In this document: positions 14,534 to 35,500 of the stretch, piece by piece
Layout: each line of letters starts with the position of its first letter
How positions within the stretch are numbered: position 1 is the first letter of the stretch
Source: a candidate division WOR-3 bacterium
GTDB taxonomy: Bacteria > Hydrothermota > Tepidihabitantia > SM23-42 > JAOAFX01
Assembly: GCA_039802145.1 (NCBI GenBank)
Contig: JBDRWA010000001.1
Location: 1-45,910, forward strand
Length of the DNA: 45,910 nucleotides
Direction of reading: 5' to 3'
Notes under the pieces: model-generated
The model's database searches: none
What the model saw: the letters and a program-made list of their open reading frames with translations, nothing else
What the model was told of the DNA's origin: nothing
Position numbers and translations under genes: made by a program

Positions 14534-14631
14534 GGGTTGGGAAATGGGATAGGGTCGGAAGGATGGTTGATGGGTTGGGGTTTGGAATCTGGTATTGAAT
14601 TTGGTTAAATGGTAATTGGTAACTGGTTAAA
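14534..14631 (+). repeat. Degenerate G-rich tandem array with 7-nt phase (about 14 units), intergenic
   Basis: GG/GGG recurs every 7 nt, clearest at TGGTTAA/ATGGTAA/TTGGTAA/CTGGTTA (14602..14629). The 5' end is GGGTTGGGAAATGGGATAGGG. Confidence 0.7.
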
Positions 14632-14634
14632 TAT

Positions 14635-18772: not shown

Positions 18773-18833
18773 AATGTAGGGCAAGGCTTTAGCCTTGCAA
18801 CAAAAATAAGCAAACCTAAAGGTTTGCCCTACA
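18773..18833. repeat. Small nested palindromic element (TGTAGGGCAA...TTGCCCTACA arms enclosing CAAGGCTTTAGCCTTG hairpin)
   Basis: 10-nt inverted arms at 18775..18784 and 18824..18833, with an inner 7-bp hairpin. The first 26 nt recur (25/26) inside a coding region at 31947..31972. Confidence 0.7.
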
Positions 18834-18867
18834 ATGTAATTAACCATAAAACCATCTACCCACCCAA

Positions 18868-21102
18868 CTATCCAACCATCAAGCCATCCAACAATCCCTT
18901 CACTTCTTGTGAATCCGGAATTATCTTCAAGACTTTTTGTAGTATTTTTCGTGCATCATTTTTGTTCCCGTGTTCAAGGCAGCTCTTGGCAAAATTTATC
19001 GCCTCAGTCTCAAGCTGCGTTAAAATCTTAAATCTCATGTCCACTGACCAGTTATCAAAATTCTTCTTAAACGGCTCACCGCGGAATAACTTGAATGCCC
19101 GTAAGTATTCTTTGCGAGCGATACCCCACTCCCCTGCCCGCTCCAGTGCCTTTGCCCGGGCTAAAGTTTGTCCAAATTCCTGATAGTCGGTGGTAAAATA
19201 AATGTTTTGATTGATTAGATAAGATTCCCCGTTCTGTCTTTTTATCTCTAAATAATGGGCAGGAATTTTAAGAGCCCTTTTTATTCGGACTAAACTGTGG
19301 GAGAAAATCCTTGCTGGATTCTTACTTTTTGACCAGAAATTTTCGTAGAGTTCATTTAAATTCAATGATTTTTCTGGTTCATTGATTCTGGTGATAATAA
19401 ACAAAAGTATTGCACTATCCTTTGGCGAAAGATGGAATTTGTGATATCTTTGATTGCGGAAAATGGTTATTTTGCCTAATAAATTTATATGGTAAACATC
19501 GGTTTTTGTATTAAATATCGGCAGGCGCAGAATTGCCTTAGGTAGATAAGTTGGTTTATTCTTTGCAATCCTTTTCTGAACAAAATCGGGGTAGAAGAAT
19601 AGATAACGATAAAAATAAAACAGGATGCCTTTCCTGACGGCAAACTGATATGCCCCCATATAACCCCTGTTTTTTAATACCCAGGCAAGTTTGATTGTAG
19701 ATAATTTGAAAAATTCTTTATTTTGTGGAATTTTTTGCAGGAGGATGTTGGTAATCAACAACTGCCTTTTCATATTTCTTTTTTTCAAAAATTTCTTCAA
19801 GTTAGCCAATAATGACTTTGCTTTTTCTTCCTCCCCAAAACACATATATGCACTTGCCATTGCCAGATAGGCATTGTTGATATCGGTCAGAAGTCCTGCT
19901 CCTTTTGAGGCATTTAGGGCATTCTGTGCTAAGATAAATGCCTCTGATGGTCTACCTTCAATCAAGGCAAAAAGGGACCGGAATCTTGATAACTGGGCAT
20001 CTTTTGCCCAATCATAAATTTCTGCTTCATTTATAAGTTTCAATGCAGTATTTTTATCGCACCTCAATAAATGAACATAAATCGCAAGCAGCGTCTTCAA
20101 CCTTTTCTTTCTTTGCTCGTCAATACCTTCAAGGGATTTGAGAAGCAGTTTTTCTGCAGTATTATAATCTTCAAGGTCTATGAACTGGACCGCAAGGTCA
20201 TAGAGGAATTCATAAAATGGACTTTTGTGTTGTGATACAAGATGATAGCAATGACGGGCAAGACGGAATGCTTCAGTCAATTTTAACATTTGCACCAGGG
20301 TGTGGCATTTTGAAATAAGTAAGGTAAAACGAATTGGCATTAAATCTTTTGCTTTTCTATCATTGTCAGGTAGAGATTTTTCAATTTTTTCTGTCCATCT
20401 CTTTTGTTCTTCAGGATTGCCAAGCCAGGATAATGCAACAAGCAAAGCCATACCAATTCTTAATGCCGAATAATTCCACTCATTCTTGATAGATTTTTTA
20501 TAGAGTATTTTTGCTTTTTTGATATATTCCGACAATGGGATTTTGCCGAATTCCATTGTCAATCTTTCAATCTTGCGCCTTGTATTCAAGAGTTTTTCCG
20601 GTAATTTTAAAACTAATTCATTCTTTGGTAGCGGGGGTAAGGAATTTAAAATTATCGCTGATTCTTTCATTTTGCCATCATTAAATAGCCGCTCTGCATC
20701 TTCTAACTTTAACTTTGTTTCCTGAGAAGGAATAATGAATTCGGTAAAGTCATTGCAAATGTTCAAACGATCAAAGCCAGAATATCCATATCTTTTCCAG
20801 ATATTCCATATTCCACGGCTGGTGATTTTTATTTTCTTCTTGAGCAATACCCTCCGTGTCTGTTCCAGCGTGAGCCAGGGATATTTTTCTTTATACTTTA
20901 TGACGAAATTTTCAATATACTTTGGGGAGCGATTCCAGGGTTTAAAAAGCGGTTGTGTTTTAAATTTTTTAAAATACTTCAACCATTTATAAACCGTCTG
21001 ATAATGGAGATTAAATTTTTTTGCGGTCTTTCTGATTGAAGATTTATTTTTAAAATATTCGTCAATGACCCCATAAAATAATTCTCTTTGTTTGTTATGC
21101 AT
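18868..21102 (-). CDS. Paralogous large regulator: paired HTH, TPR-like, winged-helix + BTAD
   Basis: 744 aa, collinear with 14635..16878. By manual count, 90 of 100 aligned residues are identical across the BTAD region starting at IYFTTDYQEF (ten residues before the C-terminus), and the rest is much more diverged. Confidence 0.7.
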   Translation of the reverse strand: MHNKQRELFYGVIDEYFKNKSSIRKTAKKFNLHYQTVYKWLKYFKKFKTQPLFKPWNRSPKYIENFVIKYKEKYPWLTLEQTRRVLLKKKIKITSRGIWNIWKRYGYSGFDRLNICNDFTEFIIPSQETKLKLEDAERLFNDGKMKESAIILNSLPPLPKNELVLKLPEKLLNTRRKIERLTMEFGKIPLSEYIKKAKILYKKSIKNEWNYSALRIGMALLVALSWLGNPEEQKRWTEKIEKSLPDNDRKAKDLMPIRFTLLISKCHTLVQMLKLTEAFRLARHCYHLVSQHKSPFYEFLYDLAVQFIDLEDYNTAEKLLLKSLEGIDEQRKKRLKTLLAIYVHLLRCDKNTALKLINEAEIYDWAKDAQLSRFRSLFALIEGRPSEAFILAQNALNASKGAGLLTDINNAYLAMASAYMCFGEEEKAKSLLANLKKFLKKRNMKRQLLITNILLQKIPQNKEFFKLSTIKLAWVLKNRGYMGAYQFAVRKGILFYFYRYLFFYPDFVQKRIAKNKPTYLPKAILRLPIFNTKTDVYHINLLGKITIFRNQRYHKFHLSPKDSAILLFIITRINEPEKSLNLNELYENFWSKSKNPARIFSHSLVRIKRALKIPAHYLEIKRQNGESYLINQNIYFTTDYQEFGQTLARAKALERAGEWGIARKEYLRAFKLFRGEPFKKNFDNWSVDMRFKILTQLETEAINFAKSCLEHGNKNDARKILQKVLKIIPDSQEVKGLLDGLMVG

Positions 21103-21248: not shown

Positions 21249-23573
21249 ATGAAAATTGGAATTTGGTTTGGTATGTTCTTAATCGTTTCTTTTGTTCATT
21301 CAGCTAACCTCCCCTGGACCTGGCAGAATCCATTACCTGAAGGTAATGAATACACTGATGTCTGTGTAATCAACGAAAATATTATTTTTGTTGTTGAAGA
21401 AGAGGCAGGAACCATTTTAAAGACGACAAATGGTGGCTTGGCCTGGGATGTAAGTTTCACACCTTATCCTGATTCCCAGCCTGGTTATTATGAACTTTAT
21501 GGTATTGATTTTCCTGATTCGCTAACTGGCTATGCAGTCGGTAATTTCTGGGGTTCAAACTGGAATACAACATATCATGCTGTAATTTTAAAAACCACAA
21601 ACCAGGGTGCAACCTGGACATTCCAGTATCTTGGCGCACAGAATACCTGGCTTATGGATGTTGATTTTCCGCAGGGAAATAATCAGGTCGGATATGCAGT
21701 AGGGAGAAATGGAATGATATTAAAAACGACAAATGGTGGGCAGAGTTGGGTTCAGCAAAATTCTGGCACAACCTATGAATTGCTTGCAGTACATTTTCCC
21801 GTTGATGCAAATACTGGATATGTTGTTGGTGGGAATAGAACTACAACCCCGGTAATCTTAAAAACAACAAACGGTGGTTCCAACTGGAATAGCCAGACAA
21901 GTCCAGCAAATGTGACTTACTGGGATGTGTGTTTTATTGATAATCAGAACGGTTATGCAGGGGGGTATACATTAGGTAGTGGTGGCAATGGTACAATTAT
22001 TAAAACAACCAATGGAGGTAGTACGTGGCAACAGATATGGTATCAACAATACCGTGAAATTTATTCAGTACATTTTTTGAATGCCCAGGTCGGGTATGCC
22101 GGTGGTTGGGCACACTCAAATTCGGGCTGGAGTGGAAGTTTCATTATGAAAACAACAAACGAAGGTAGTAGCTGGACTCCAGTCTTTCTTCCGAAATTTA
22201 TGACCTATGTTTTACCGATTGGTTTTGCCAATACACTGACTGGTTATGCTGCAGGATATGTCTATGACCAGAATGGTGGCCATGGCCAACTTTTGAAAAC
22301 TACGGATGCGGGCACATCCTGGATTTTCTTAAATACAGGTCCTGAAGGAATTTTTTGGGCTGTTGATTTTCCGGAGAGCGACCAAATTGGTTATGCGGTT
22401 GGCGATGCAGGATATATATACAAGACAACTGATGGAGGTGCAACCTGGGTACAGCAAACAACAGGAACCGGGCAGGTATTCTATGATGTTGATTTTCTTG
22501 ATAATCAACTCGGTTTTGCAGTTGGTGCTAATGGAACATTTTTCAAGACAACAAACGGTGGTAATGTCTGGACTCCAAAAAATGCAAATACTACAGCCAC
22601 CCTGTATGCAGTGAAATTCATAAATTCGCAAATTGGTTACATTGCTGGACTGGGAAGTACTGGTGGAGTGATAATGAAGTCTACGGATGGAGGTGATAAC
22701 TGGATAAGTCAGACCATCCCTAACAATAATACTTATCGGGCAATTCAGGATTTATTTTTCTTTAATGCGGATACTGGTTATGCAGTTGCGGGTGCCACAC
22801 CTTCTTATGGTGGTGCAGTTGGACTTGTATATAAAACCACTAATGGTGGTCAGACCTGGGTTGAAAACTATGCACCATCTTCAGCAAATTTCTATGCCAT
22901 AGATTTTCCAGAAAATTCACAGGTTGGTTATATTTCAGGTTTAATGGGAGGTACCGGGACTTATAAAATGATAAAGACAACCAATGGGGGCAATTCCTGG
23001 ACAGGACAAAGCCTGGGGGGTGGTATTGTTCCCGCTGTTGGTGTATCCTTTGCAGATAATCTCATTGGTTATGCGGTATTCAGACCTGGTGGATACCATA
23101 TGATGATGAAGACAACGAATGGTGGTTCAAACTGGTTTGCTATCAATTCTCTGACCTGGCACGGTTATGAGGATATCCAGGCGATCAATGCAAATGTCGT
23201 TTATGCAGTTGGCAGGGGCGGAATGATCCGCAAGACAACAAATGGTGGAAGCGTTTGGATTGAGGAAGAAAAAGGTGATGGAGATATAAAGGTGGATAAT
23301 CATTATCAAAGTTTGTGGGTCTATCCTAATCCATTCAGGAACAATGTCCATATCAGATGCAGGATGCATGATACAGGATACATGATAAAGATATACGATG
23401 TTTCGGGACGTGTTGTAAAATCTTTCAATCTTGAATCCTGTATCCTGAATCATGAATCCAGTATCACCTGGTTCGGCGATGATAAGCTGGGACGTGAATT
23501 GCCTGCAGGTGTTTATTTTATCGTGCCTGAGGATAAAAGTTCGTCGCCCGTGCGGGTGGTGAAGATAAGATAA
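21249..23573 (+). CDS. Secreted BNR/Ycf48-like double beta-propeller protein with T9SS C-terminal sorting domain
   Basis: I prefer the start at ATG 21249 (AAGGGGG SD, then signal-like MKIGIWFGMFLIVSFVHSA) over the track start 21180. There are 14 repeats of the (I/L)xKTTNGGxxW motif. Tail NPFRNN...IKIYDVSGR...LPAGVYFIV...VVKIR. Confidence 0.85.
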   Translation: MKIGIWFGMFLIVSFVHSANLPWTWQNPLPEGNEYTDVCVINENIIFVVEEEAGTILKTTNGGLAWDVSFTPYPDSQPGYYELYGIDFPDSLTGYAVGNFWGSNWNTTYHAVILKTTNQGATWTFQYLGAQNTWLMDVDFPQGNNQVGYAVGRNGMILKTTNGGQSWVQQNSGTTYELLAVHFPVDANTGYVVGGNRTTTPVILKTTNGGSNWNSQTSPANVTYWDVCFIDNQNGYAGGYTLGSGGNGTIIKTTNGGSTWQQIWYQQYREIYSVHFLNAQVGYAGGWAHSNSGWSGSFIMKTTNEGSSWTPVFLPKFMTYVLPIGFANTLTGYAAGYVYDQNGGHGQLLKTTDAGTSWIFLNTGPEGIFWAVDFPESDQIGYAVGDAGYIYKTTDGGATWVQQTTGTGQVFYDVDFLDNQLGFAVGANGTFFKTTNGGNVWTPKNANTTATLYAVKFINSQIGYIAGLGSTGGVIMKSTDGGDNWISQTIPNNNTYRAIQDLFFFNADTGYAVAGATPSYGGAVGLVYKTTNGGQTWVENYAPSSANFYAIDFPENSQVGYISGLMGGTGTYKMIKTTNGGNSWTGQSLGGGIVPAVGVSFADNLIGYAVFRPGGYHMMMKTTNGGSNWFAINSLTWHGYEDIQAINANVVYAVGRGGMIRKTTNGGSVWIEEEKGDGDIKVDNHYQSLWVYPNPFRNNVHIRCRMHDTGYMIKIYDVSGRVVKSFNLESCILNHESSITWFGDDKLGRELPAGVYFIVPEDKSSSPVRVVKIR
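23354..23394 (+). repeat. In-frame 7-nt-phased array in T9SS tail, loop 1 (CAGGATG/CATGATA/CAGGATA/CATGATA/AAGATAT)
   Basis: Units read directly; they encode RCRMHDTGYMIKI just before the IYDVSGR strand. Confidence 0.75.
23432..23466 (+). repeat. In-frame 7-nt tandem array in T9SS tail, loop 2 (TGAATCC/TGTATCC/TGAATCA/TGAATCC/AGTATCA)
   Basis: Five contiguous heptamers read directly; they encode LESCILNHESSI. Confidence 0.8.
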
Positions 23574-23593
23574 AAACCCAACCCCCTTTCTGG

Positions 23594-23623
23594 CCCCTGG
23601 GGTGCCTGTGGGCACCCCAGGGG
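23594..23623 (+). terminator. 13-bp GC-rich hairpin after cargo gene (CCCCTGGGGTGCC-tgtg-GGCACCCCAGGGG)
   Basis: Perfect stem. The stem sequence is identical to the hairpin at 18628..18659. It is followed by an A-run rather than a T-run. Confidence 0.55.
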
Positions 23624-23715
23624 ATTAAAAAAATGTTAGTTTATTTACAAAATATTTTTAGAACATAAATTGAGATGTTTTGTATGAAACTGAATAAAAA
23701 ATTTCTCAAAAGACA

Positions 23716-23807: not shown

Positions 23808-23905
23808 TTATCATCTGAAAGGAGGTGAGAATAAATGAATTAAAATATGGGGATGCTGCAGTACAGGATCAATTCAAATAAAGAGAATTGAAAAAGGAGG
23901 TGTGT

Positions 23906-26900
23906 ATGTTTAATTTGTTGCTTGCGTTTCTTTTTGTAGCAAGGCCAGTGATACCGGGTAAGATGACTCCGGAACTGGCGCAGATTCTGCATAATACATC
24001 AGATAACGAAAAGATACTCGTTATCGTCCATATGGCTACAGAATATCCTTATGACCAGCTTCGGGGAATGACACCGGTTGAAAAGTGCAAGGTATTTGAG
24101 AATATTGCCTTCAATTCCCAGCGTGAAATTGTTGAATATTTAAAGTCACTCCCTGACGAGTTTGCTGAAGTCGGTGGTCAATTCTGGATATTCAATGGAT
24201 TCCATTTAAAAGCAACAAAGGCATTAATCTATGAACTTGCCAAGCGTGATGATATCTGGTTTATCTGCCACAATGGGATAGTAAAACTTGATGCTGATGT
24301 TCTGCCTGAAGCAGATATTACTGGTCGTGCTCCAGAATGGAACATCAAGAAAATAAAGGCGGATTCTTGCTGGGCAGAGGGTTATTCTGGTTCAGGGATA
24401 ATTCTTGGTCATATTGATACCGGCGTATTAACTACCCATGAGGCACTTACCGGTAAATGGCTCTCTCCTTACTGGATTGATGGTGTGAGTGGACAGGCTA
24501 ATCCTTATGACGACCATGGACATGGGACTCATACTATGGGGACTATCTGTGGTGGTGATGGCCCTGGTCCGTTTGCGAATGATGTTGGTGTTGCATATGG
24601 TGCCCGGTATATTCCAACCAAGGCATTTGATTCTGGTGGTTCAGGACAGTATGCCTGGATCGATACCTGTATGCAATATCTGGCGAGATTGAAGTCTCAA
24701 GGTGTTGATATCCGGGCGATTGGTAATTCCTGGGGCAGTTCGGGTCAGACCGATTTACACTGGTGGGATATAATTCTGAACTGGAAAAATCTTGATGTAT
24801 TTCCTGTATTCTCCCAGGGGAATAGTGGTCCAAATTCAGGAACGGCAAATGCACCAGGAAATTATCCCACTGCAATAGGTGTTGGTGCAACCGATTCACT
24901 TGATGTGATTGCAAGTTTCTCGTCCCGTGGCCCTGCACCAAATCAAAGTCCCTGGAATGATCCACAATACTGGTATTATCCTACCTGGAATCTTTTAAAA
25001 CCCGATGTCTCTGCCCCGGGTGTCGCAGTCCGTTCTTCATATAATAATGGTGGATACACATCTATGCAGGGAACTTCTATGGCATCACCCCATGTCACCG
25101 GCGGAACTGCAATTCTCCTTGAGAAAAATTCCACTCTTACTCCTGACCAGTTATTCGAAATCTTTTATACCACCTGTGACCAGCCATCAGGTGGAGGTCC
25201 CTATCCTAACAATAACTATGGCTGGGGTAGAATAAATCTCTATCGTGCATTACAACAGACACCGCCGCCAACTCCTCACCATAATATTCGTGTTCAGACA
25301 ATAGTTGTCCCTGGAACAAGGGAGCGTGAATATACTGTTATCCAACCCCAGGTTCGTTTTAAGAATGCAGGAACCTTTGATGAAAACAATATCCCTGTGG
25401 TATGCCAGATAAAGAGGGGCACGACAACCGTTTATACCAGCAACCGCACGATTGGTTCACTCCTTCAGAATAAGGATACACTGATAACTTTTGATAATTT
25501 CACAGTTGGTTCCTGTGGCAATCATTATACTGCTTTTGGCATAGCCAACCTTTCAACCGATACTCTCCATTATGATGACACATTGAAAAAGAATTTTGTT
25601 GCAGCAAGGGTCTATGAAGTCACAACGCCGGATTGTGATGCCTGGAAGATTGCTAATGCGGACTCTGGAACTCCACCCGCGCCAACGAATCCTGCTTGGA
25701 TTCCTGCCACAACAACCGAGAAACAGCAGATCTCTGCACTTGATAATCAGTGGTGGGTAACGGCAGGCTCTCCACAAGATACCACACATATGGATGTGCA
25801 GTTATATGGATTCCGATTGACCGGAGTTCCTGATACCGCCATTGAGGAGATGACCCTTGAGTGGTGGGGTCATCATGGAAGTGGCGTGCGGGACCAGTTA
25901 AGATTTAGGCTTTGGAACACCCTGACGAGTTCCTATTCATTAAAGATTACCCAACAGAATGTCACTTCAGATCAATTATTCAGCATAATTATTCCTGACG
26001 ATTCTGCTGAAGCCTATGTGGGTAATGATGGTTTCTTATATGCCTGTGTGGCGAATGATGTCTATATCAAATCTTCCTGTCCATTGCTCTTTACTCATAA
26101 TAAAAACAAGAGTTACTTCATCGGCGACATTGTAACTGGTGGAGATATTGGAACCTGGATTGGTCGGGTAATGGGTGTGAATCTTTATGCACCACCTGAC
26201 TACGACGAATATGTAAAGATTGATGGCGAAAAATTGCAAGCGGTGAATGGGAAATATCACCTCAGTATAAATGAGATGCTCCAGGAAATCAGTTATATTG
26301 ATGAAGTAACACTGTATGCAGTTGACCACCCTGCTGGAAGTGATATTTATCCTCATGAGGCACTCCTCTGGCCCGGTTATCAAGGGTTGAAAATTTTCAA
26401 TGGTTATGAAAAGCCGATTTACAAGGTATTCAATGAAAAGGGTCAGGATATTACTGATTATCTAAATGCAATTGATAGGAATTTTGCTCCATTTGAATTA
26501 ACAGGACTTGTGGGATTTGCCAAGCCTTTCACAATTACACTTGACCTTGGGGAATTGAATGATCCGGATAATACAGTCCTTTGCCTCTATGGTAGCACAC
26601 GTTTTCCTGATGCGGGAAAGATTAAGGAAGTGAGTGATATCTACGAGGCCTACAAAAAGGGCATGAAGGTTCAAAATCCGACTGTTGAAGTTTATAATAA
26701 CGGCAAGTGGCAGAAGATCAAATCCTGCGGTATGCCTGCGGGTCATAAAAAGGTAGTTACCTATCCGCTCTTTGATGAAAATGGTAAGTCAATCTTCAAA
26801 GGCAAAGACTATAAACTAAGAATTACATTCTACCATGAAGTTTATCTTGATAAAATCTGGATTACCACAGATACAGATAACAATTATCGCATTGCGGCAC

Positions 26901-27970
26901 TTTCGCCCATTTCTGCGGACTTGCACTTCTACGGCAATTCTGCTTATGTCTCAGACGATGGTAGATATCCGGGTGAGTTTGATTATGCTAATAAGATTCA
27001 AGTTGATTATGCCCAGGCAGCAGGATACTACACCCGTTACGGTGATGTCCTAACATTACTACAAGAAGGAGATAATAAATTTGTAATAATGAAATCCGGA
27101 GACGAGATAAAACTTACATTTGATGCTCAAGAACTACCGCCATTACCAGACGGCTGGAAACGAGACTTCATCTTCGCAACAAAAGGATTCTATAAGGCGA
27201 TTAGACCTGGCCGTGCCTATGCTTACTCTGTAGATCCATTACCTTTCTACGGAATGCGCGCAGATTTATCTGCAAATGGTGTTGGTTATTATCCTTATGA
27301 CCCAGCACCGGGACTATTCGGTTCACTGATCGGAAGAATTTATGCAAGGATTGCCTGGGGTTATCCATTTTCACTTAAAGATGCGATTACACTGATTAAA
27401 AACCATATTACGAATAAGGTGAATAATAAATATCCTGCAGAACTTACCGAATACTGCCAGTTATGGAATACGAGAAGGGTAGAAGGTTATTATCCTGCCT
27501 ATTATGCGAATTTCTTACCGCATAAGAACCTTGAGAAAGTGCCTTTAACCGAAAGAGAAGGCAAATGGCCTATGCACCTTGCCTCGCTGGGAATTCCATT
27601 CGGACCGCATTCATTATACAGCAACTATGTCCGCCTCTGGATGGTGACACATAATCCACTCGTTGTAGTTGAGGAGAAACCTGCAAATCAAGCAAAGGGA
27701 TTTTCATTTATTGCCCTTCAGAATCCGTTCCGCAATATCGCTAAATTCGAATACAATCTGCCAGTGAATACAAAGGTCAATATAAGCGTATATGATAATA
27801 CAGGAAGACTGGTGCGTCGTCTCGTAGATGCAAAACAGGATAGAGGCAGTTATCAACTGGAATGGTCGGGCGATGATGAGCAGGGTAGAAAGTTGTCGAC
27901 TGGAGTCTACTTTGTAAGATTTGAGACCGACCAGACGAACACGGTCCAGAAGGTGATAATGCTGAAATAA
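23906..27970 (+). CDS. Giant secreted S8 peptidase: I9-like propeptide, complete S8 catalytic set, ~800-aa uncharacterised extension, T9SS C-terminal sorting domain
   Basis: I prefer the start at ATG 23906 (GGAGG 5 nt upstream) over the track TTG at 23888. Motifs: GHIDTGV (Asp), DDHGHGTHTMG (His), SQGNSGP (oxyanion Asn), MQGTSMASPHVTGG (Ser). Tail QNPFRNIAKF...VYDNTGRLV...GVYFVRF...VIMLK. Confidence 0.88.
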   Translation: MFNLLLAFLFVARPVIPGKMTPELAQILHNTSDNEKILVIVHMATEYPYDQLRGMTPVEKCKVFENIAFNSQREIVEYLKSLPDEFAEVGGQFWIFNGFHLKATKALIYELAKRDDIWFICHNGIVKLDADVLPEADITGRAPEWNIKKIKADSCWAEGYSGSGIILGHIDTGVLTTHEALTGKWLSPYWIDGVSGQANPYDDHGHGTHTMGTICGGDGPGPFANDVGVAYGARYIPTKAFDSGGSGQYAWIDTCMQYLARLKSQGVDIRAIGNSWGSSGQTDLHWWDIILNWKNLDVFPVFSQGNSGPNSGTANAPGNYPTAIGVGATDSLDVIASFSSRGPAPNQSPWNDPQYWYYPTWNLLKPDVSAPGVAVRSSYNNGGYTSMQGTSMASPHVTGGTAILLEKNSTLTPDQLFEIFYTTCDQPSGGGPYPNNNYGWGRINLYRALQQTPPPTPHHNIRVQTIVVPGTREREYTVIQPQVRFKNAGTFDENNIPVVCQIKRGTTTVYTSNRTIGSLLQNKDTLITFDNFTVGSCGNHYTAFGIANLSTDTLHYDDTLKKNFVAARVYEVTTPDCDAWKIANADSGTPPAPTNPAWIPATTTEKQQISALDNQWWVTAGSPQDTTHMDVQLYGFRLTGVPDTAIEEMTLEWWGHHGSGVRDQLRFRLWNTLTSSYSLKITQQNVTSDQLFSIIIPDDSAEAYVGNDGFLYACVANDVYIKSSCPLLFTHNKNKSYFIGDIVTGGDIGTWIGRVMGVNLYAPPDYDEYVKIDGEKLQAVNGKYHLSINEMLQEISYIDEVTLYAVDHPAGSDIYPHEALLWPGYQGLKIFNGYEKPIYKVFNEKGQDITDYLNAIDRNFAPFELTGLVGFAKPFTITLDLGELNDPDNTVLCLYGSTRFPDAGKIKEVSDIYEAYKKGMKVQNPTVEVYNNGKWQKIKSCGMPAGHKKVVTYPLFDENGKSIFKGKDYKLRITFYHEVYLDKIWITTDTDNNYRIAALSPISADLHFYGNSAYVSDDGRYPGEFDYANKIQVDYAQAAGYYTRYGDVLTLLQEGDNKFVIMKSGDEIKLTFDAQELPPLPDGWKRDFIFATKGFYKAIRPGRAYAYSVDPLPFYGMRADLSANGVGYYPYDPAPGLFGSLIGRIYARIAWGYPFSLKDAITLIKNHITNKVNNKYPAELTEYCQLWNTRRVEGYYPAYYANFLPHKNLEKVPLTEREGKWPMHLASLGIPFGPHSLYSNYVRLWMVTHNPLVVVEEKPANQAKGFSFIALQNPFRNIAKFEYNLPVNTKVNISVYDNTGRLVRRLVDAKQDRGSYQLEWSGDDEQGRKLSTGVYFVRFETDQTNTVQKVIMLK

Positions 27971-28114: not shown

Positions 28115-29320
28115 ATGAAATCAATAAGTAAGATTTGCTTGTTTTATAAAGGCAGGTCAAATTTTTTAAAAGAATTTTTTTACCTTTTTAATAAGGGTGG
28201 GATAAAATCTACTATTTCTTGTCTGCGACTATTCAAGACCGCATTAAATAACGAAAAGATAAATAAATTTAACGATAAAGCAGTCCTTTTCTTTCTCATT
28301 CCACCTATCCCGTCAGAGAGTTTTAGACGCCATTTAAGGCATTATTCAAACAAATTTATTTTGCGAAACGGAAATAGTTTCTTTGGACAGGCATTCATCG
28401 CGGTCAATCGCAAATGTCCGTTCAATTGCTGGTATTGTAGTGCAGGCAACACGCAGGATAATGAATTGAGTTTAGAAGAACTGGATGGAGTTATTTCGCT
28501 GTTTAAAGACTGGGGTGCAAGCACAATTGTCTTTACCGGTGGTGAACCACTTTTGAGGGATGATATAGATATTTTGATCTCAAAATATCATGAAGATCTG
28601 TCATTTGTTATATTGACTTCTGGTTATGGATTGAGTGTAAAAAGGGCAAAAAGACTGAAAGATAACGGTTTGTTTTCAATTTCTATCAGCCTCGATCACT
28701 TTGACCCTAAAATCAATGACCGGTCAAGGGGTAGGGAAGGGGCATTTGACATTGCCCTTGATGCCATAAAGAATGCCAAGAGTGCTGGATTGTATACAGT
28801 CGTCCAGACCGTAGCAACAAGCGAATTGTTAAGGGATGGAGAGACAGAAAGATTCATAGACTTTGTAAAAAATTTAGATGTTGATGAATTATTCCTCCTT
28901 GAACCGCTCTGCACTGGAAGATTGTTTAGTAAAGAAAGAGATATTTATTTGAATGGCGAAGAGGCAGAAAAATTGAAATTATTACATATCCAATCAGCGA
29001 AAAAGAAAAACGGTTTGAAGATTATTACATCCCCATTCATTGAAGATACTACAAAATTTGGCTGTGGTGCTGGTACCCAGCATATCTATGTTGATACGAG
29101 TGGCGATCTCTGGCCCTGCAATTTTCTCCCTGTATCATTGGGGAATCTCTTAAGAGAACCTGAGGCTGTGAAGATAAGACTTAAGAAATATTTCAGTAAA
29201 CCATGTGGTTTCTGTATTCTAAAGAAGTACCACAAAGAATTATTAAAGTATTATGATAATGGATTACCTATAAAGTTTGAATGCATAGAAAAGATATTAG
29301 AAAAGATGGATAAATCCTGA
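28115..29320 (+). CDS. Radical SAM enzyme with C-terminal SPASM/twitch-like Cys cluster
   Basis: 401 aa with CPFNCWYC (CxxxCxxC) after a ~95-aa N-terminal extension. GGEPLL motif. The C-terminus GCGAGTQHIYVDTSGDLWPCNF...PCGFC resembles a partial SPASM domain. Confidence 0.8.
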   Translation: MKSISKICLFYKGRSNFLKEFFYLFNKGGIKSTISCLRLFKTALNNEKINKFNDKAVLFFLIPPIPSESFRRHLRHYSNKFILRNGNSFFGQAFIAVNRKCPFNCWYCSAGNTQDNELSLEELDGVISLFKDWGASTIVFTGGEPLLRDDIDILISKYHEDLSFVILTSGYGLSVKRAKRLKDNGLFSISISLDHFDPKINDRSRGREGAFDIALDAIKNAKSAGLYTVVQTVATSELLRDGETERFIDFVKNLDVDELFLLEPLCTGRLFSKERDIYLNGEEAEKLKLLHIQSAKKKNGLKIITSPFIEDTTKFGCGAGTQHIYVDTSGDLWPCNFLPVSLGNLLREPEAVKIRLKKYFSKPCGFCILKKYHKELLKYYDNGLPIKFECIEKILEKMDKS

Positions 29321-29348: not shown

Positions 29349-32156
29349 ATGATGGTAGGTAGTGCATTAATCTTAGTCTTTACGCTGCTACCACAGATTC
29401 CAGGTAAGTTGACCCCGGAACTTTTAGAAATACTTAATCGCTCTTCACCCGGTGAAAAAATCTTTGTCATTGTCCATATGAGTACTGAATACCCATATGC
29501 TGAGATTGAAAACTTGCATCCTCAGGAAAAATGTAAAATCTTTGAGCAGGTTGCCAGAAATTCCCAGAAGGATATTATCAATTATCTTAAAAGATTGCCC
29601 GTAGAAAAGGCAGAAGTCCTTAAGCAGTTCTGGATTTTTAATGGCTTCCATCTGAAGGCAACGAAGCATATAATCTATGAACTCGCCAAACGTGATGATA
29701 TCTGGTTTATCTGCCATAACGGAATAATAAAACTTGATGATGAGGTTTTGTCAGAATCGGATATTACAGGGCGTACGCCAGGGTGGAATATTATAAAGAT
29801 AAAAACGGATTCCTGCTGGCTTGCTGGATATAGCGGTGCAGGTGTTATTGTTGGACACATTGATACAGGAGTTATGATAGACCACCCTGCCCTTGAAGGG
29901 AAATGGTTATTACCTTACTGGTATGATGCGGTGAATTTTTACCCTAGACCGTATGATGATCATGGACATGGCACTTTTACAATGGGCACTCTATGCGGTG
30001 GTGATGGCTTTGGACCATTCGGTGAAGATGTCGGTGTTGCCTTTGGTGTAAAATATATTGCAACCAAGGCATTTGATTCTCATGGCTCTGGACAATATGC
30101 TTGGATAGATGCCTGTATGCAGTATCTTGCAGATTTGAAGGCACAGGGTGTGAACATTTGTATAATAAATAATTCATGGGGATCTGCCAATGGCTCGGAT
30201 TTACACTGGTGGAATCTCATTCTCACCTGGAAAAATTTAGAAATCTTTGCCGTTTTTGGCACAGGAAGTAGCGGTCCTGGTTCAGGGACGGTTGTTTCAC
30301 CGGCAAGTTATCCCCTTGTCGCCGGAATCGGTGCCACCGATTCCAGTGATAACATAACGAGTTTCTCTTCCCGTGGTCCAGCACCGAACATCTCACCGAT
30401 AAATGACCCTCAATACTGGTTTTACCCGACCTGGAATTTGTTAAAACCAGATTTCTCAGCCCCCGGGCAAAATATTCGTTCATGCTACAATAATGGTGGT
30501 TATGCTAATTCCACAGGGTCAGGAATAACCACGCCCCATGTTGCTGGTGGTGCGGCGATTTTGTTAGAAAAAAATCCGGAACTTACGGTTAATGATATCT
30601 ATGATTTTTTCCGAATTTACTGTGACCAGCCTCCGCAGGGCGCACCGTATCCAAACAATAATTATGGTTGGGGCAGGGTTAATCTCTGGCGCTCTTTACA
30701 AAACATTCCGCCTTTGAATATGCCCAACATTGTTCTCGCCAATGCTTCAGTCGTTAATGACAACAATAGCAATGGTAAACTTGACCCTGGTGAAGATGCA
30801 GGAATTGTTTGTTATTTGAAAAACAGCGGGGGCGTGCAGGCGAGTAATGTCCAGGCAATTTTAAGGACAACATCTAATTATGTTATAATTTACGATTCAA
30901 CATATTTTTATGGCACAATCAGTTCCGGAGATACGGTTGAAAATACATCAGAACCATTTGTGTTAAGTGTATTAGATTCAACACCGCCAGGGCACATTTC
31001 AATTTTCCAATTAACAATCACCTCTGCCGAGACAACTTGGACAAGAAGTTTTTATAAAACGGTCGGTATCGCTCCAGGAACGATTATCTGGGGTCCTAAG
31101 ACACTGCCCAATTTTCCTACAAGCGGAATTGTCTATGGTATTTCCTATGATGCAGCGGATGATAAAATATATGTAGTAGACTTTAATTCACCTCAGATCT
31201 ATTGTTACTCATCGGATAGTTTTGTTACTTACTATGGGACAATTCCTGCGCCAGAAGATAGTCTCACTGACATCACCTATAGCCCTTATGATGATGCATT
31301 GTATGTGATTGGGCTCAATCCTAAAATTGTGTGGAAGATTGATAAGACGACTGGTGCAATACTCCGTCAATTTGATAATCCGGCAATTGACTATCCTGTC
31401 GGTATAGTTTTAAAACCGCATGATACACTATGGTTTGCGGATCGAAGGACTGCTCTTGGTACACCCCAGTTGCTTTATATTGGTGATACATTAGGAAATG
31501 CCAATCAATATAATAACCCGGTCCAGGGATATTACAACTCGCGGTGCCTCGCCTATGACGCGATTGGTAATTCATTTATTCAAGCCCATACATGGTATGA
31601 TTCTCATGGAAACAATTTGGATAGTGCTGGTGTTGTTGAAATAAAAGGTGAACCACCCATGTTGACATCAAATCTTATGCTGTTAAATCCAGCTTGGCAT
31701 ATAAGGGGTGTAGAATTTGACCCGCGGGATGGCAATTACTGGGTTACCATTGCCCAGGTTGGTGGCAGTTTTCCTGTAAGATGGATTGTAAAAGTGAGGG
31801 GTTTTTATACACCGACAACCGCGATTAAAGAAAGAAAAGTCTTCCAGACACAAAAAGGACTTTTAAATATTGTGCCGAATCCATTCCAGAATCACTGCGT
31901 TATTAAATTTCAAATTCCAAGCACCAAATCCCATAATCCAAACGGAAATGTAGGGCAAGGCTTCAGCCTTGCGATATACGATGTAACCGGTAGAATGGTT
32001 AGAGATTTTTCTTGGCTGACGGTAAACGGTGAACGGTCAACGGTTTTCTGGGATGGTTGTGATGATTCTGGTCGCAATTTGCCTGCAGGTGTTTATTTTG
32101 TTAGGTTAGATGTGGATGATTTCAAAAAAGTGGAAAAGGTTATATTTTTAAGATGA
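29349..32156 (+). CDS. S8-like paralogue with substituted nucleophile (probable pseudo-peptidase), NHL/beta-propeller-like region and T9SS C-terminal sorting domain
   Basis: 935 aa, collinear with the 23906 gene through the S8 domain with no gaps around the active site. Asp (GHIDTGV) and His (DDHGHGTFTMG) are kept, but GTSMASPHV is replaced by GSGITTPHV and the oxyanion GNSG by GSSG. Tail PNPFQNH...IYDVTGRMV...LPAGVYFVRL...VIFLR. The gene starts 28 nt after the radical SAM gene. Confidence 0.85.
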   Translation: MMVGSALILVFTLLPQIPGKLTPELLEILNRSSPGEKIFVIVHMSTEYPYAEIENLHPQEKCKIFEQVARNSQKDIINYLKRLPVEKAEVLKQFWIFNGFHLKATKHIIYELAKRDDIWFICHNGIIKLDDEVLSESDITGRTPGWNIIKIKTDSCWLAGYSGAGVIVGHIDTGVMIDHPALEGKWLLPYWYDAVNFYPRPYDDHGHGTFTMGTLCGGDGFGPFGEDVGVAFGVKYIATKAFDSHGSGQYAWIDACMQYLADLKAQGVNICIINNSWGSANGSDLHWWNLILTWKNLEIFAVFGTGSSGPGSGTVVSPASYPLVAGIGATDSSDNITSFSSRGPAPNISPINDPQYWFYPTWNLLKPDFSAPGQNIRSCYNNGGYANSTGSGITTPHVAGGAAILLEKNPELTVNDIYDFFRIYCDQPPQGAPYPNNNYGWGRVNLWRSLQNIPPLNMPNIVLANASVVNDNNSNGKLDPGEDAGIVCYLKNSGGVQASNVQAILRTTSNYVIIYDSTYFYGTISSGDTVENTSEPFVLSVLDSTPPGHISIFQLTITSAETTWTRSFYKTVGIAPGTIIWGPKTLPNFPTSGIVYGISYDAADDKIYVVDFNSPQIYCYSSDSFVTYYGTIPAPEDSLTDITYSPYDDALYVIGLNPKIVWKIDKTTGAILRQFDNPAIDYPVGIVLKPHDTLWFADRRTALGTPQLLYIGDTLGNANQYNNPVQGYYNSRCLAYDAIGNSFIQAHTWYDSHGNNLDSAGVVEIKGEPPMLTSNLMLLNPAWHIRGVEFDPRDGNYWVTIAQVGGSFPVRWIVKVRGFYTPTTAIKERKVFQTQKGLLNIVPNPFQNHCVIKFQIPSTKSHNPNGNVGQGFSLAIYDVTGRMVRDFSWLTVNGERSTVFWDGCDDSGRNLPAGVYFVRLDVDDFKKVEKVIFLR
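31905..31939 (+). repeat. In-frame 7-nt tandem array in T9SS tail, loop 1 (AAATTTC/AAATTCC/AAGCACC/AAATCCC/ATAATCC)
   Basis: Units read directly; they encode KFQIPSTKSHNP. The unit family resembles the arrays at 32335..32383. Confidence 0.75.
31947..31972 (+). repeat. Coding copy of the 26-nt palindromic element (AATGTAGGGCAAGGCTTCAGCCTTGC)
   Basis: 25/26 identical to intergenic 18773..18798. Translated in frame as NVGQGFSLA. Confidence 0.8.
32019..32046 (+). repeat. In-frame 7-nt tandem array in T9SS tail, loop 2 (ACGGTAA/ACGGTGA/ACGGTCA/ACGGTTT)
   Basis: Four contiguous heptamers. The first three differ only at position 6, and position 6 runs A, G, C, T across all four. They encode LTVNGERSTV. 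Confidence 0.85.
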
Positions 32157-32268: not shown

Positions 32269-32276
32269 CCAATGCT

Positions 32277-32304
32277 TTGACTTCTCTGGTATCAGTGATA
32301 TAAT
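32277..32304 (+). promoter_or_regulatory. Consensus-like sigma70 promoter (TTGACT-16-TATAAT) in the relic region
   Basis: -35 at 32277..32282, -10 at 32299..32304. Followed by GGAGG (32310..32314) and an ATG at 32320. Confidence 0.5.
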
Positions 32305-32334
32305 CAATTGGAGGCAGAAATGAGAATTGCAAAT

Positions 32335-32383
32335 AAATTCGAAATCCGAAGCACGAAATTCGAAACAAATTCTAAATTCCAAA
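32335..32383 (+). repeat. 7-nt tandem array (AAATTCG/AAATCCG/AAGCACG/AAATTCG/AAACAAA/TTCTAAA/TTCCAAA)
   Basis: Read directly. Confidence 0.75.
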
Positions 32384-32409
32384 CCGCTACGCAGCACGGC
32401 GGACCAAAC

Positions 32410-32479
32410 AAATCCGCATTTCGCAATCCGAAATTCAAAATGCCTTTTTCCCGTTCCGCAATTCGCAAAACGAAATTTC
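32410..32479 (+). repeat. 7-nt tandem array (AAATCCG/CATTTCG/CAATCCG/AAATTCA/AAATGCC/.../CAATTCG/CAAAACG/AAATTTC)
   Basis: About ten units with conserved ..A..CG phase, read directly. Confidence 0.7.
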
Positions 32480-32517
32480 ATTAAAGATTTATGATGTTGC
32501 GGGTCGGGTAATGAAAT

Positions 32518-32549
32518 CATTTAACCATTTAACCAATTTTTCATTTAAC
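32518..32549 (+). repeat. 8-nt tandem array in orphan tail, loop 2 (CATTTAAC/CATTTAAC/CAATTTTT/CATTTAAC)
   Basis: Read directly; it encodes HLTNFSFN at the same loop as the heptamer arrays in the intact paralogues. Confidence 0.75.
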
Positions 32550-32670
32550 CAGATTGTTTGGGACGCTTTTGATGATTCCGGTCGTAAACTTCCTGCAGGT
32601 GTTTATTTTGTGCGGCTGGAGACGGGTGAATTCAGTATGGTGAAGAAGGTGATATTTTTAAGATAGGGGA

Positions 32671-32720
32671 TGAAGAAGGGTGAATAAGGGTGAAGAGGGG
32701 TAAAAAGGGGTTGGACAGGG
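32671..32720 (+). repeat. Five tandem decamers ending in G-runs (TGAAGAAGGG/TGAATAAGGG/TGAAGAGGGG/TAAAAAGGGG/TTGGACAGGG)
   Basis: Read directly. G3-4 runs are spaced 10 nt apart, with one more GGGG at 32666..32669. Confidence 0.85.
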
Positions 32721-32833
32721 TATCGGAGCCTCGGTGGAACGGAGCATCGGGGAAACCGAAATGGATTGCATTAGCTTGCTAATGCGCCGTTGTTTAATTA
32801 TTGGAATTTAATCATTGTTTGGGATTTAATTAG

Positions 32834-35427: not shown

Positions 35428-35500
35428 GGCGGCGTAGCTCAGTTGGCAGAGCAGGAGAATCATAATCTCTGTGTCGGGGGTTCGACTCCCTCCGCCGCTA
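35428..35500 (+). tRNA. tRNA with CAU anticodon (elongator Met, or Ile2 if lysidinylated); CCA not encoded
   Basis: Hand-folded cloverleaf. Acceptor GGCGGCG/CGCCGCT (G1-U72 wobble), U8, D arm GCTC-AGTTGGCA-GAGC, anticodon arm GGAGA-ATCATAA-TCTCT, T arm GGGGG-TTCGACT-CCCTC, discriminator A. It lacks the three G-C pairs and the 1-72 mismatch of an initiator. Confidence 0.9.

What the first reader, a model, noticed from the sequence alone, without database searches (positions are those of the whole stretch)
31905..32046. Same two loops of a second T9SS tail carry different heptamer arrays, one sampling all four bases at a single unit position
In the 29349 gene, loop 1 is AAATTTC/AAATTCC/AAGCACC/AAATCCC/ATAATCC, followed by a 26-nt palindromic element. 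Loop 2 is ACGGTAA/ACGGTGA/ACGGTCA/ACGGTTT, where position 6 of the unit runs A, G, C, T in successive copies and position 7 also changes in the last copy. A similar leading-base series appears intergenically at 14609..14629 (A-TGGTAA, T-TGGTAA, C-TGGTTA). The loop positions match those in the BNR cargo tail, but the unit sequences are unrelated. This argues for repeated independent expansion, or for targeted insertion at these loops, rather than common descent. The loop-1 unit family matches the orphan-region arrays (AAATTCG/AAATCCG/AAGCACG).
Basis: seen in the sequence. Interest (0 to 1): 0.65.

Follow-up and report, generated by a model that had tools for sequence, protein, structure and literature searches.

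The report
Heptamer repeats inside secretion-tail loops
The 7-base repeat arrays in this protease's type IX secretion tail are real, but they are inherited, recombining sequence modules that many secretion tails of WOR-3-like bacteria share, together with an in-frame REP palindrome, and they are not being generated or diversified in this gene.

Summary
Loop 2 (32019-32046) is a significant 4-unit heptamer array. Loop 1 (31905-31939) is a weaker one, followed by a palindrome at 31950-31972.

The arrays are not private to this gene. In 1.18 Mb of related DNA, 51 of 73 period-7 arrays lie in T9SS tails, which make up 5% of the DNA. About 45% of tails in low-GC loci carry one, always in the same two segments.

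The ACGGTAA/GA/CA/TT array, including its A,G,C,T series, recurs almost unchanged. It has a fixed 28-nt length in about 20 tails on other cargoes and in other genomes. Stop-codon avoidance partly explains the series. It is therefore inherited, not diversifying.

A near-identical strain has the loop-1 segment swapped wholesale. Loop-1 and loop-2 types combine freely across tails. This points to mosaic recombination among tail copies.

The palindrome is a REP. In a relative it flanks a RAYT gene on both sides.

One other tail subfamily, which includes the window's BNR tail, has loop 1 and loop 2 complementary, with covariation.

The closest known things are heptanucleotide simple-sequence repeats and in-frame palindromic elements. 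I found no report of their concentration in secretion tails.

The parts
29349..32156 (+). S8 subtilase gene (935 aa) with a C-terminal T9SS type A sorting domain
   Evidence: ORF. Pfam Peptidase_S8 at 3.7e-34, with weak Por_Secre_tail and FlgD_ig hits. Homologues are named candidate division WOR-3.
31860..32153 (+). T9SS tail (98 aa), a seven-strand beta-sandwich
   Evidence: TIGR04183 scores 32.2 bits against a cut-off of 23. AlphaFold pLDDT is 81.6 with 7 strands. Foldseek hits T9SS CTDs 8qb1, 5m11, 8glk_D and 8gl6_D, and also FlgD.
31905..31939 (+). Loop-1 degenerate heptamer array (AAATYCC family), encoding KFQIPSTKSHNP
   Evidence: Lag-7 matches 18/28, shuffle P<5e-5. It is homologous to loop-1 modules in L005, L006, L012 and L017 and to the orphan array. 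Residues 23-31 of the tail model have pLDDT<50.
31950..31972 (+). REP element GTAGGGCAAGGCTTCAGCCTTGC read in frame (VGQGFSLA). Its 3' arm encodes the start of strand 3.
   Evidence: The same 23-mer, with 0-2 mismatches in most copies and 4 in L013, sits just before IYD in 8 tails. It also occurs intergenically in L008, L034 and the window at 18776. In L008 it flanks a RAYT homologue on both sides.
32019..32046 (+). Loop-2 heptamer array ACGGTAA/ACGGTGA/ACGGTCA/ACGGTTT, encoding TVNGERSTV
   Evidence: TRF score 38. It is identical or nearly identical in L003, L004, L007, L008 (two tails), L086 and L087. Length is constant at 28 nt in 11 metagenome tails.
32322..32666 (+). Orphan tail remnant: a start codon, heptamer arrays (32335-32383), a frame break, then ISLKIYD...VIFLR with an octamer array at 32518-32551
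   Evidence: In L086 and L003 the same promoter, SD and ATG start an intact BNR-type gene whose N-terminus carries an AATCCGC heptamer array.
23356..23465 (+). BNR-cargo tail: loop-1 array (GATRCAK) and loop-2 array (AATCCTG family). The two are reverse complements and can pair as a long hairpin.
   Evidence: TRF rows. Duplex z=-6.9. MFE -42.2 kcal/mol, z=-3.19, 0 of 200 shuffles. Covariation in 7 tails: 93.6% of cells paired, 6 compensatory pairs, 0 of 500 shuffles.
14601..14634 (.). Intergenic heptamer array (TTGGTAA family). On the minus strand it reads TTAACCAGTTACCAATTACCATTTAACC, the same unit family as the NHLTNYQ loop-2 module.
   Evidence: TRF score 31, sequence, and comparison with the loop-2 sequences of L008, L010 and L039.
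18776..18832 (+). Intergenic REP doublet (REPIN-like): GTAGGGCAAGGCTTTAGCCTTGC followed by an inverted GCAAACCTAAAGGTTTGCCCTAC

Best explanation
The two arrays are degenerate heptanucleotide simple-sequence repeats. They occupy the two sequence-permissive segments of a T9SS type A sorting domain, between its conserved anchors PNPF, IYDxxGRxV, WDG and GVYF.

In WOR-3 and allied low-GC lineages these tails form a multi-copy family. Its segments are exchanged by recombination or gene conversion between paralogous tails. Loop-1 modules (AAATCCN, GATACAG, CAGATGC and others) and loop-2 modules (ACGGTNA, AATCCTG, CATTTAAC, TACTNCC and others) therefore occur in many combinations.

This gene inherited an AAATYCC loop-1 module, an in-frame REP palindrome and the ACGGTNA loop-2 module. 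It did not create them.

Inferred steps. The arrays arose by slippage-type tandem duplication of 7-nt units, the size class already known to dominate long SSRs in prokaryotes. They were then purged of stop codons by point changes. That purging is why the units are imperfect, and it is part of why position 6 differs between units. Loop 1 tolerates length change and is the fast-turnover segment. Loop 2 is length-constrained and is now conserved.

Shown: the concentration in tails, module sharing, constant length, mosaicism between close strains, and the REP identity.

Inferred: the slippage origin, recombination as the shuffling mechanism, and the absence of any function beyond encoding tolerated loop peptide.
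For: - Concentration. 51 of 73 period-7 arrays lie in the 5% of DNA that encodes tails. There are 31 in loop 1, 25 in loop 2 and 0 in the last segment, and 48 of the 56 tail arrays in that scan have period 7. 25 of 56 tails in low-GC loci carry an array against 3 of 81 in high-GC loci, and 0 of 5600 shuffled loops reach the threshold.
- Inheritance. The loop-2 array is identical in tails on other cargoes and in other assemblies. The gap is exactly 28 nt in all 11 metagenome tails.
- Module combinations are listed.
- Mosaicism. L087 is identical to the window. L086 has near-identical cargo, but its loop 1 through GRxV is replaced and its 3' end is of the L003 type. The window, L004, L086 and L003 show all four combinations of two loop-1 states and two 3'-end states.
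- Tail swapping. Orthologous cargoes P0003-P0026 carry a different tail without arrays.
- Stop-codon logic. Perfect (ACGGTAA)n, (ACGGTGA)n and (ACGGTTA)n arrays all contain a stop. (AATCCTG)n gives TGA, which the TATCCTG variant avoids.
- Loop lengths. Loop-1 arrays lengthen the loop (28 against 20 aa). Loop-2 arrays do not (22 against 21 aa).
- The structure model puts loop 1 in a region of pLDDT<50.
- Literature. Heptanucleotide repeats are the most abundant class of 5-11-nt SSRs in most prokaryotic genomes that carry such repeats, and polymerase slippage has been proposed as the cause (Mrazek 2007, as summarised in PMC4679880; also PMC4692102).
Against: - Tolerance alone does not explain the pattern. 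Intergenic DNA is at least as permissive, yet it holds far fewer period-7 arrays. Outside tails, periods 7 and 8 are equally common (22 against 24), whereas inside tails period 7 dominates.
- I saw no direct slippage event, meaning a unit gain or loss between close relatives.
- In one subfamility of tails, loop 1 and loop 2 co-vary to stay complementary. This suggests either a nucleic-acid-level constraint or templated mutation, and the neutral model does not predict it.
- Gene and orphan arrays differ by a concerted C/G change at position 7 of all four units. Simple descent does not explain this.
- Synonymous variation inside the ACGGTNA array is lower than in flanking conserved codons (0.07 against 0.38). 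That comparison rests on only 3 codons and has ascertainment bias.
- The tails were sampled through a search seeded with this tail family, so frequencies may not represent whole genomes.
Confidence: 0.6

Rival explanations
1. Contingency locus. The heptamer arrays slip during replication. Gain or loss of one unit shifts the frame and switches the secretion tail off and on (phase variation).
For: The unit length is not a multiple of 3, so a one-unit change would shift the frame. The arrays sit in surface or secreted-protein genes, the usual place for contingency loci. The orphan tail has a frame break inside its array region.
Against: The units are all different from each other, and imperfect repeats slip poorly. 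About 20 copies of the loop-2 array have exactly the same length. The window and L087 have identical arrays. The L086 difference is a patch replacement with an 18-nt insert, not a multiple of 7.
Confidence: 0.04
2. Nucleic-acid structure. The arrays exist because the mRNA or single-stranded DNA of the tail must form a hairpin between loop 1 and loop 2, for example to control translation, mRNA stability or recombination.
For: In the GATNCNN/ATC subfamily the two loops pair as a 20-bp stem. 93.6% of cells are paired, with 6 compensatory pairs. 0 of 500 shuffles reach this, and slid controls give 15-44%. Matched loop pairs bind better than mismatched pairs, p=1e-4. The BNR tail folds with z=-3.19.
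Against: The tail under review shows no such pairing. The duplex z-score is +0.6 and the fold z-score is 0.01. Loop-1 and loop-2 module types recombine freely, so most combinations are not complementary. Quasi-palindrome correction could give the same covariation without any function. The subfamily was selected by a motif present in both loops.
Confidence: 0.12
3. Targeted insertion of mobile DNA. A RAYT or REP-type system inserts palindromes, together with their flanking short repeats, at a preferred site in tail loop 1, and the arrays are part of or a by-product of those elements.
For: The REP 23-mer lies at the same codon position before IYD in 8 tails whose upstream arrays and downstream codons differ. 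It is better conserved than its flanks. It flanks a RAYT homologue in L008. Short periodic sequence also lies next to intergenic REP copies in L034 and the window.
Against: Most array-bearing tails have no REP. Loop-2 arrays have no palindrome. The window's RAYT is flanked by a different inverted repeat (I3). Recombination among tails would also place one ancestral insertion in many contexts.
Confidence: 0.12
4. Protein-level selection only. The peptides TVNGERSTV and KFQIPSTKS are selected as such, and the 7-nt periodicity is incidental.
For: RLTVNGERSTV is conserved as protein across tails. IKFQIP is the end of strand 2, and NGE is a plausible turn.
Against: A 7-nt DNA period reads the unit in all three frames, and selection on amino acids cannot produce that. 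The same period recurs with at least 8 unrelated unit sequences in the same two segments. 0 of 5600 shuffled loops reach the threshold.
Confidence: 0.05
5. Targeted hypermutation (DGR-like). The position-6 series A,G,C,T is the product of template-directed mutagenesis.
For: One unit position shows all four bases.
Against: The series is kept in nearly all of about 20 homologous tails; the rest carry only a point change. No reverse transcriptase or template repeat is present in the window. The variation is not adenine-specific. Stop-codon constraints explain part of it.
Confidence: 0.01

Closest known systems
Heptanucleotide long simple-sequence repeats of prokaryotes. Examples are the cyanobacterial STRR heptamers, TAACTGA repeats of Beggiatoaceae, Cyanobacteria and some Bacteroidetes, Xanthomonas GGGAATC and Nostoc GGGGAYT.
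   Same: Tandem 7-nt units. Several unit families occur per genome. Inverted arrangements occur. The distribution is lineage-restricted and the function is unknown. A slippage origin has been proposed. Some units resemble each other: AAATCCC/AATCCCC is the complement of GGGGATT, and TTGGTAA is close to STRR2 TTGGTCA (the STRR2 comparison is from my own knowledge). Sources: PMC4679880 and PMC4692102.
   Different: The known repeats are overwhelmingly intergenic and under-represented in coding DNA, and they are often perfect repeats. Here the arrays are degenerate and translated through all three frames. They are concentrated about 44-fold in two segments of one protein domain, and they are inherited as modules.
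Rickettsia palindromic elements (RPE) and other palindromic repeats or MITEs inserted in frame in protein genes (Ogata et al. 2000, from my own knowledge; a MITE review, PMC10969869, was listed but not read)
   Same: A genome-wide palindromic repeat is read through in frame in a surface-exposed, tolerant part of a protein, as the REP at 31950-31972 is.
   Different: RPEs are about 100-150 bp and are scattered over many unrelated genes. This is a 23-nt RAYT-type REP at one fixed position of a multi-copy domain, and it partly encodes a beta-strand.
REP/RAYT systems (REPINs, BIMEs)
   Same: A GTAG-led palindrome, doublets in inverted orientation (18776-18832), and copies flanking a RAYT gene in L008.
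   Different: Classical REPs are extragenic by definition. Here copies are inside coding sequence. The window's own RAYT has other flanking repeats.
Phase-variable SSR contingency loci (Haemophilus, Neisseria, and the heptanucleotide repeats at the HMW adhesin genes)
   Same: Units are not divisible by 3, and the loci are in or near genes for surface or secreted proteins.
   Different: Contingency loci use perfect repeats with strain-to-strain differences in copy number. These arrays are imperfect and have fixed length.

Membership tests
T9SS type A C-terminal sorting domain (TIGR04183 / PF18962) | Sequence match to the family model above its curated cut-off | tested here: met
   TIGR04183 scores 32.2 bits for this tail and 30.1 bits for the BNR tail, against a cut-off of 23. 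Pfam PF18962 scores only 23.0 against a cut-off of 27 for this tail, probably because of the loop-1 insert.
T9SS type A C-terminal sorting domain (TIGR04183 / PF18962) | Seven-strand Ig-like beta-sandwich at the extreme C-terminus | tested here: met
   The AlphaFold model has 7 strands, pLDDT 81.6 and pTM 0.74. Foldseek hits T9SS CTDs (8qb1, 5m11, 8glk_D, 8gl6_D, 6za2) at E of about 1e-3 to 1e-2. The domain ends at the stop codon.
T9SS type A C-terminal sorting domain (TIGR04183 / PF18962) | The organism encodes the T9SS machinery, and the cargo is secreted and its tail cleaved | not testable with these tools
   No T9SS core genes are in the window, and only 46 kb is available.
Heptanucleotide simple-sequence repeat (LSSR / STRR-like) | Head-to-tail copies of a 7-nt unit, beyond chance | tested here: met
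   Loop 2: TRF score 38, lag-7 matches 17/21, 0 of 20000 shuffles. Loop 1: 18/28, P<5e-5, but below the TRF threshold.
Heptanucleotide simple-sequence repeat (LSSR / STRR-like) | Copy number varies between related sequences (slippage activity) | tested here: not met
   The loop-2 array has the same length in about 20 homologous tails. The window and L087 are identical. Loop-1 differences are patch replacements.
REP (repetitive extragenic palindrome) of a RAYT system | A short palindrome with a conserved 5' GTAG, present in many copies per genome | tested here: met
   GTAG plus a 7-bp stem. There are 2 copies in the window, 6 in the 20-kb locus L008 and 3 in L034.
REP (repetitive extragenic palindrome) of a RAYT system | Copies flank a RAYT (Y1 transposase) gene | tested here: met
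   In L008 a RAYT homologue (phmmer 8.4e-9 to the window RAYT) has the 23-mer on both sides. This is not the case for the window's own RAYT at 13524-14186 (NF047646 77.1 bits against a cut-off of 80), whose flanks are a different 27-nt inverted repeat.
REP (repetitive extragenic palindrome) of a RAYT system | Extragenic location | tested here: not met
   The copy at 31950-31972, and 7 others, lie inside tail coding sequence, always read as VGQGFSLA or a near variant.
Diversity-generating retroelement target | A nearby reverse transcriptase and a template repeat, with adenine-specific differences | tested here: not met
   No RT domain is found in any large ORF of the window. No second copy of the array was found. 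The array is conserved among homologues.

The most novel reading that the evidence does not exclude
In WOR-3, Stahlbacteria and related lineages the T9SS tail would be a dedicated DNA- or RNA-level cassette system. Heptamer arrays, whose units read the same peptide in any frame, would serve as frame-tolerant recombination joints. These joints would let tail segments, and whole tails, be swapped between cargo genes. In some subfamilies the arrays would also form a selected loop-1/loop-2 hairpin that controls expression or recombination of the secretion signal. REPs would be recruited into the same site.
Probability: 0.2. Interest if true: 0.8.

Novelty: new variant of a known kind. Interest (0 to 1): 0.6.

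Why it matters
Heptanucleotide repeats are a long-noticed but unexplained class of bacterial repeats, and they have been described almost only between genes. Here they are translated and concentrated about 44-fold in two defined segments of one secretion-signal domain across several uncultured phyla. They are shuffled as modules, and in one subfamily the two arrays co-vary as a hairpin.

This gives a well-delimited natural system for asking how such repeats arise and persist. It also bears on how T9SS signals evolve by recombination and on how much sequence the CTD loops tolerate.

There are practical consequences as well. Tails break assemblies: many tail genes sit at contig ends. The repeat-derived peptides (KSEIRNP, DTGYRIQ and others) also pollute protein databases.

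Tried and rejected
- Chance or low complexity was rejected by shuffles.
- In-situ diversification or DGR was rejected. The array is conserved, and there is no RT.
- Phase variation was rejected. Length is constant and the units are imperfect.
- A loop-1/loop-2 hairpin in this tail was rejected, with z=0.01 and duplex z=+0.6. It does hold for the BNR-type subfamily.
- No known RNA family matches. Rfam finds only a tRNA.
- The first related-loci run with a 9-tail alignment failed for lack of a conserved stretch. I repeated it with 5 closer tails.
- A first fuzzy-regex alignment of the loop-2 array was thrown off by the 7-nt register. I redid it by best Hamming match.
- The synonymous-site comparison has too few invariant codons to be conclusive.
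- Seven literature searches found no report of heptamer arrays in T9SS tails. The library lacks many subscription papers, including Mrazek 2007 and Mazel 1990, which I cite only second-hand or from my own knowledge.
- I could not define exact breakpoints for the deletion that made the orphan tail.
Full report
**What is at the coordinates**

The gene at 29349-32156 (+) encodes a 935-aa S8 subtilase (Pfam Peptidase_S8 3.7e-34). Its closest homologues are named candidate division WOR-3. The last 98 residues are a T9SS type A sorting domain:
- TIGR04183 scores 32.2 bits against a cut-off of 23.
- An AlphaFold model has pLDDT 81.6 and seven strands.
- The model matches solved T9SS CTDs and FlgD in Foldseek.

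The window holds five T9SS-tailed genes and one orphan tail.

**Checking the observation**

Loop 2 (32019-32046) is ACGGTAA/ACGGTGA/ACGGTCA/ACGGTTT.
- TRF reports it with score 38.
- It has 17/21 lag-7 matches, and 0 of 20000 shuffles reach this.

Loop 1 (31905-31939) is weaker.
- It has 18/28 lag-7 matches. P<5e-5, or about 0.001 after allowing any period from 4 to 11.
- TRF does not list it.

The palindrome is a 7-bp stem at 31955-31972. The conserved element is the 23-mer GTAGGGCAAGGCTTCAGCCTTGC at 31950-31972.

The intergenic series at 14609-14629 is present. The register match to the orphan array is 21/28.

A window-wide self-similarity scan places all three period-7 hits at >=16/21 in tail loops. 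One of the two period-8 hits is also in a tail loop. The shuffle mean is 0.17.

In the structure model, the first two loop-1 units encode the end of strand 2 (KFQ). Residues 23-31 are disordered. The palindrome's 3' arm encodes the start of strand 3 (FSLA). The loop-2 array covers the loop and half of strand 5.

**The arrays are a property of the tail family, not of this gene**

I fetched 80 loci containing related tails from one genome per species, plus syntenic loci from close strains.

An HMM of the tails finds 166 tails in 1.2 Mb. Inside the tails there are 56 arrays at >=16/21.
- 48 of the 56 have period 7.
- 31 are in the PNPF-to-IYD segment, 25 are in the GR-to-GVYF segment, and none is in the last segment.

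Over all the DNA, 51 of 73 period-7 arrays fall in the 5% that encodes tails, which is about 44-fold enrichment. Periods 4-6 and 8-12 are not enriched in tails. Several of the 'non-tail' arrays lie just after a tail stop codon or at the N-terminus of a T9SS cargo gene.

Arrays occur in 25 of 56 tails in low-GC loci (WOR-3, Stahlbacteria, one Cloacimonadota). They occur in 3 of 81 tails in high-GC loci (Eisenbacteria, Krumholzibacteriota, Gemmatimonadota, Fibrobacteraceae). None of 5600 shuffled loops reaches the threshold.

It supports the claimed concentration.

**This gene's arrays are inherited**

A search with the tail alone finds tails on other cargoes with RLTVNGERSTV[FV]WDG. At the DNA level the array ACGGTAAACGGTGAACGGTCAACGG is identical in L003, L004, L007, two tails of L008, L086 and L087. 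It differs by 2-4 point changes in L005, L006 and L009.

A metagenome scan used the flanks with a free gap of 10-40 nt. It finds 11 tails with the array between the flanks, and all have exactly 28 nt there. The A,G,C,T series is therefore a fixed feature of a tail subfamily.

Part of the series is forced by the reading frame:
- In unit 3, position 6 is the middle base of T-N-A, so A or G would give a stop.
- In unit 2, position 6 is the first base of N-A-A, so T would give a stop.
- Perfect (ACGGTAA)n, (ACGGTGA)n and (ACGGTTA)n arrays all contain stops.

The same logic explains the TATCCTG variant in the BNR tail, because (AATCCTG)n gives TGA.

The 5' part of loop 1 (AAATTCCAAATTCCAAGCACCAAATCCC, KFQIPSTKSQ) is likewise shared with tails in L005, L006, L012 and L017.

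**Tails are mosaics**

Orthologues of the cargo at 45-62% identity (P0003-P0026) carry a different tail type without arrays. Only P0002 has a related tail.

Within the 90% cluster, P0132/L087 is identical to the window. P0133/L086 has near-identical cargo DNA but differs in two places:
- It has a different loop 1 through GRxV: 18 extra nt of array and no palindrome.
- It has a different 3' end, which matches L003.

The window, L004, L086 and L003 show all four combinations of two loop-1 states and two 3'-end states. This is the signature of recombination.

Across the sample, loop-1 types (AAATCCN, GATACAG, CAGATGC, GCATAGA and others) and loop-2 types (ACGGTNA, AATCCTG, CATTTAAC, TACTNCC and others) occur in many combinations.

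Loop-1 arrays lengthen the loop (median 28 against 20 aa). Loop-2 arrays do not (22 against 21 aa).

**The palindrome is a REP**

The 23-mer occurs just before IYD in 8 tails. Their upstream arrays and downstream codons differ. Most copies carry 0-2 mismatches; the L013 copy carries 4. It also occurs intergenically in L008 (four copies), in L034 (three copies) and in the window at 18776, where it forms an inverted doublet.

In L008 it lies on both sides of a RAYT homologue.

The window's own RAYT (13524-14186) scores NF047646 77.1 bits against a cut-off of 80. It is flanked by a different 27-nt inverted repeat.

The RAYT link therefore holds for the palindrome, not for the arrays. Whether the fixed position reflects one insertion spread by recombination or site preference remains open.

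**A hairpin in another tail subfamily**

In tails with GATNCNN loop-1 units and ...ATC loop-2 units, which include the window's BNR tail, the two arrays are reverse complements.
- The BNR tail has duplex z=-6.9.
- It folds at -42.2 kcal/mol with z=-3.19, and 0 of 200 shuffles fold as well.
- Matched loop pairs bind better than mismatched pairs within the subfamily (p=1e-4).
- An alignment of 7 tails gives a 20-pair stem with 93.6% of cells paired and 6 compensatory pairs. 0 of 500 shuffles reach the covariation score, and slid controls give 15-44% paired.

The subfamily was picked by a motif present in both loops, and quasi-palindrome correction could mimic selection.

The tail under review has no such pairing.

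**What it most likely is**

The arrays are degenerate heptanucleotide SSRs in the two permissive segments of a multi-copy, recombining domain. Stop-codon purging keeps them open.

The literature gives a partial reason for the number 7. Heptanucleotide repeats are the most abundant 5-11-nt SSR class in most prokaryotic genomes that carry such repeats, and a polymerase-contact and slippage explanation has been proposed (Mrazek 2007, as summarised in PMC4679880; also PMC4692102). Known heptamer families are the STRR repeats, TAACTGA, GGGAATC and GGGGAYT. They are intergenic and under-represented in coding DNA.

I found no report of translated heptamer arrays in T9SS tails.

**What remains unexplained**
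- The strong tail specificity relative to intergenic DNA.
- The dominance of period 7 over period 8 inside tails only.
- The concerted C/G difference at position 7 of all four units between the gene array and the orphan array.
- The loop-1/loop-2 covariation in one subfamily.

**Verdict**

I class it as a new variant of a known kind (heptanucleotide SSRs plus REPs, here in a coding, domain-specific and modular setting).

Noticed in passing
window 23356-23465: In the BNR-cargo tail, loop 1 (GATGCAG/GATACAG...) and loop 2 (AATCCTG/TATCCTG...) are reverse complements and fold into a long hairpin (-42.2 kcal/mol, z=-3.19). In 7 related tails the stem co-varies: 6 compensatory pairs, 0 of 500 shuffles.
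   Followed up: yes
window 32276-32666; L086 8900-9650; L003 480-2025: The orphan tail keeps the promoter-like TTGACT/TATAAT, the GGAGG and the ATG. In L086 and L003 these start an intact BNR-type gene. That gene's signal-peptide n-region itself carries an AATCCGC heptamer array (MKKFSGDSAIRNPKSAMPF...). In the window and L087 the cargo body is missing and the junctions lie in heptamer arrays, which suggests an array-mediated deletion.
   Followed up: partly
window 31905-31932 vs 32335-32362: The gene array and the orphan array align in register at 21/28. Four of the seven differences are C->G at position 7 of each of the four units, including the divergent AAGCAC unit. I found no mechanism for this concerted change.
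   Followed up: partly
window 18776-18832: A REPIN-like inverted doublet of the REP: GTAGGGCAAGGCTTTAGCCTTGC ... GCAAACCTAAAGGTTTGCCCTAC. It is followed by a C-rich octamer array (AACCATCC) at 18842-18897.
   Followed up: partly
window 13487-14211: A RAYT-like Y1 transposase gene (13524-14186) sits between 27-nt inverted repeats (13487-13513 / 14185-14211, 96% complementary). Their sequence differs from the REP found in the tails.
   Followed up: partly
window 18540-18662 and 23502-23627: Two different cargo genes share the last about 70 nt of the tail. They also share a downstream 13-bp-stem palindrome, CCCCTGGGGTGCC...GGCACCCCAGGGG, at 90-93% identity. The duplicated or converted unit therefore runs past the stop codon.
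   Followed up: no
window 32665-32760; L003 400-480; L086 8815-8890: A G-rich array of about 10-nt period (TGAAGAAGGG family) directly follows a tail stop codon. The same block follows the S8 tail in L086 and L003, but in the window it follows the orphan tail.
   Followed up: partly
window 14635-16878 and 18868-21102 (minus strand): Two paralogous HTH-plus-TPR genes (3' ends 82% identical) each end next to short-period arrays. The heptamer array at 14601-14634, read on the minus strand, belongs to the same unit family (AACCAWTT/AATTACC) as a loop-2 module of other tails.
   Followed up: partly
window 59-1648, 23888-27970, 29349-32156 with 28115-29320: There are three paralogous S8 subtilases with T9SS tails. 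A radical SAM/SPASM gene lies directly upstream of the 935-aa one, and that synteny is kept in L086 and L087.
   Followed up: no
L003, L004, L005 (locus starts); P0121, P0122, P0124, P0126: Many tail-bearing genes are truncated at contig ends. Tails act as dispersed repeats that break metagenome assemblies, so tail surveys from MAGs under-sample them.
   Followed up: no
L008 9784-10294 vs 16651-17161: Two tails in one genome have loop-1 arrays of equal length (93 nt), but the heptamer variants are in a different order. This suggests exchange at the level of single units within arrays.
   Followed up: no
window 35428-35500: A tRNA gene is the only Rfam match in the window.
   Followed up: no
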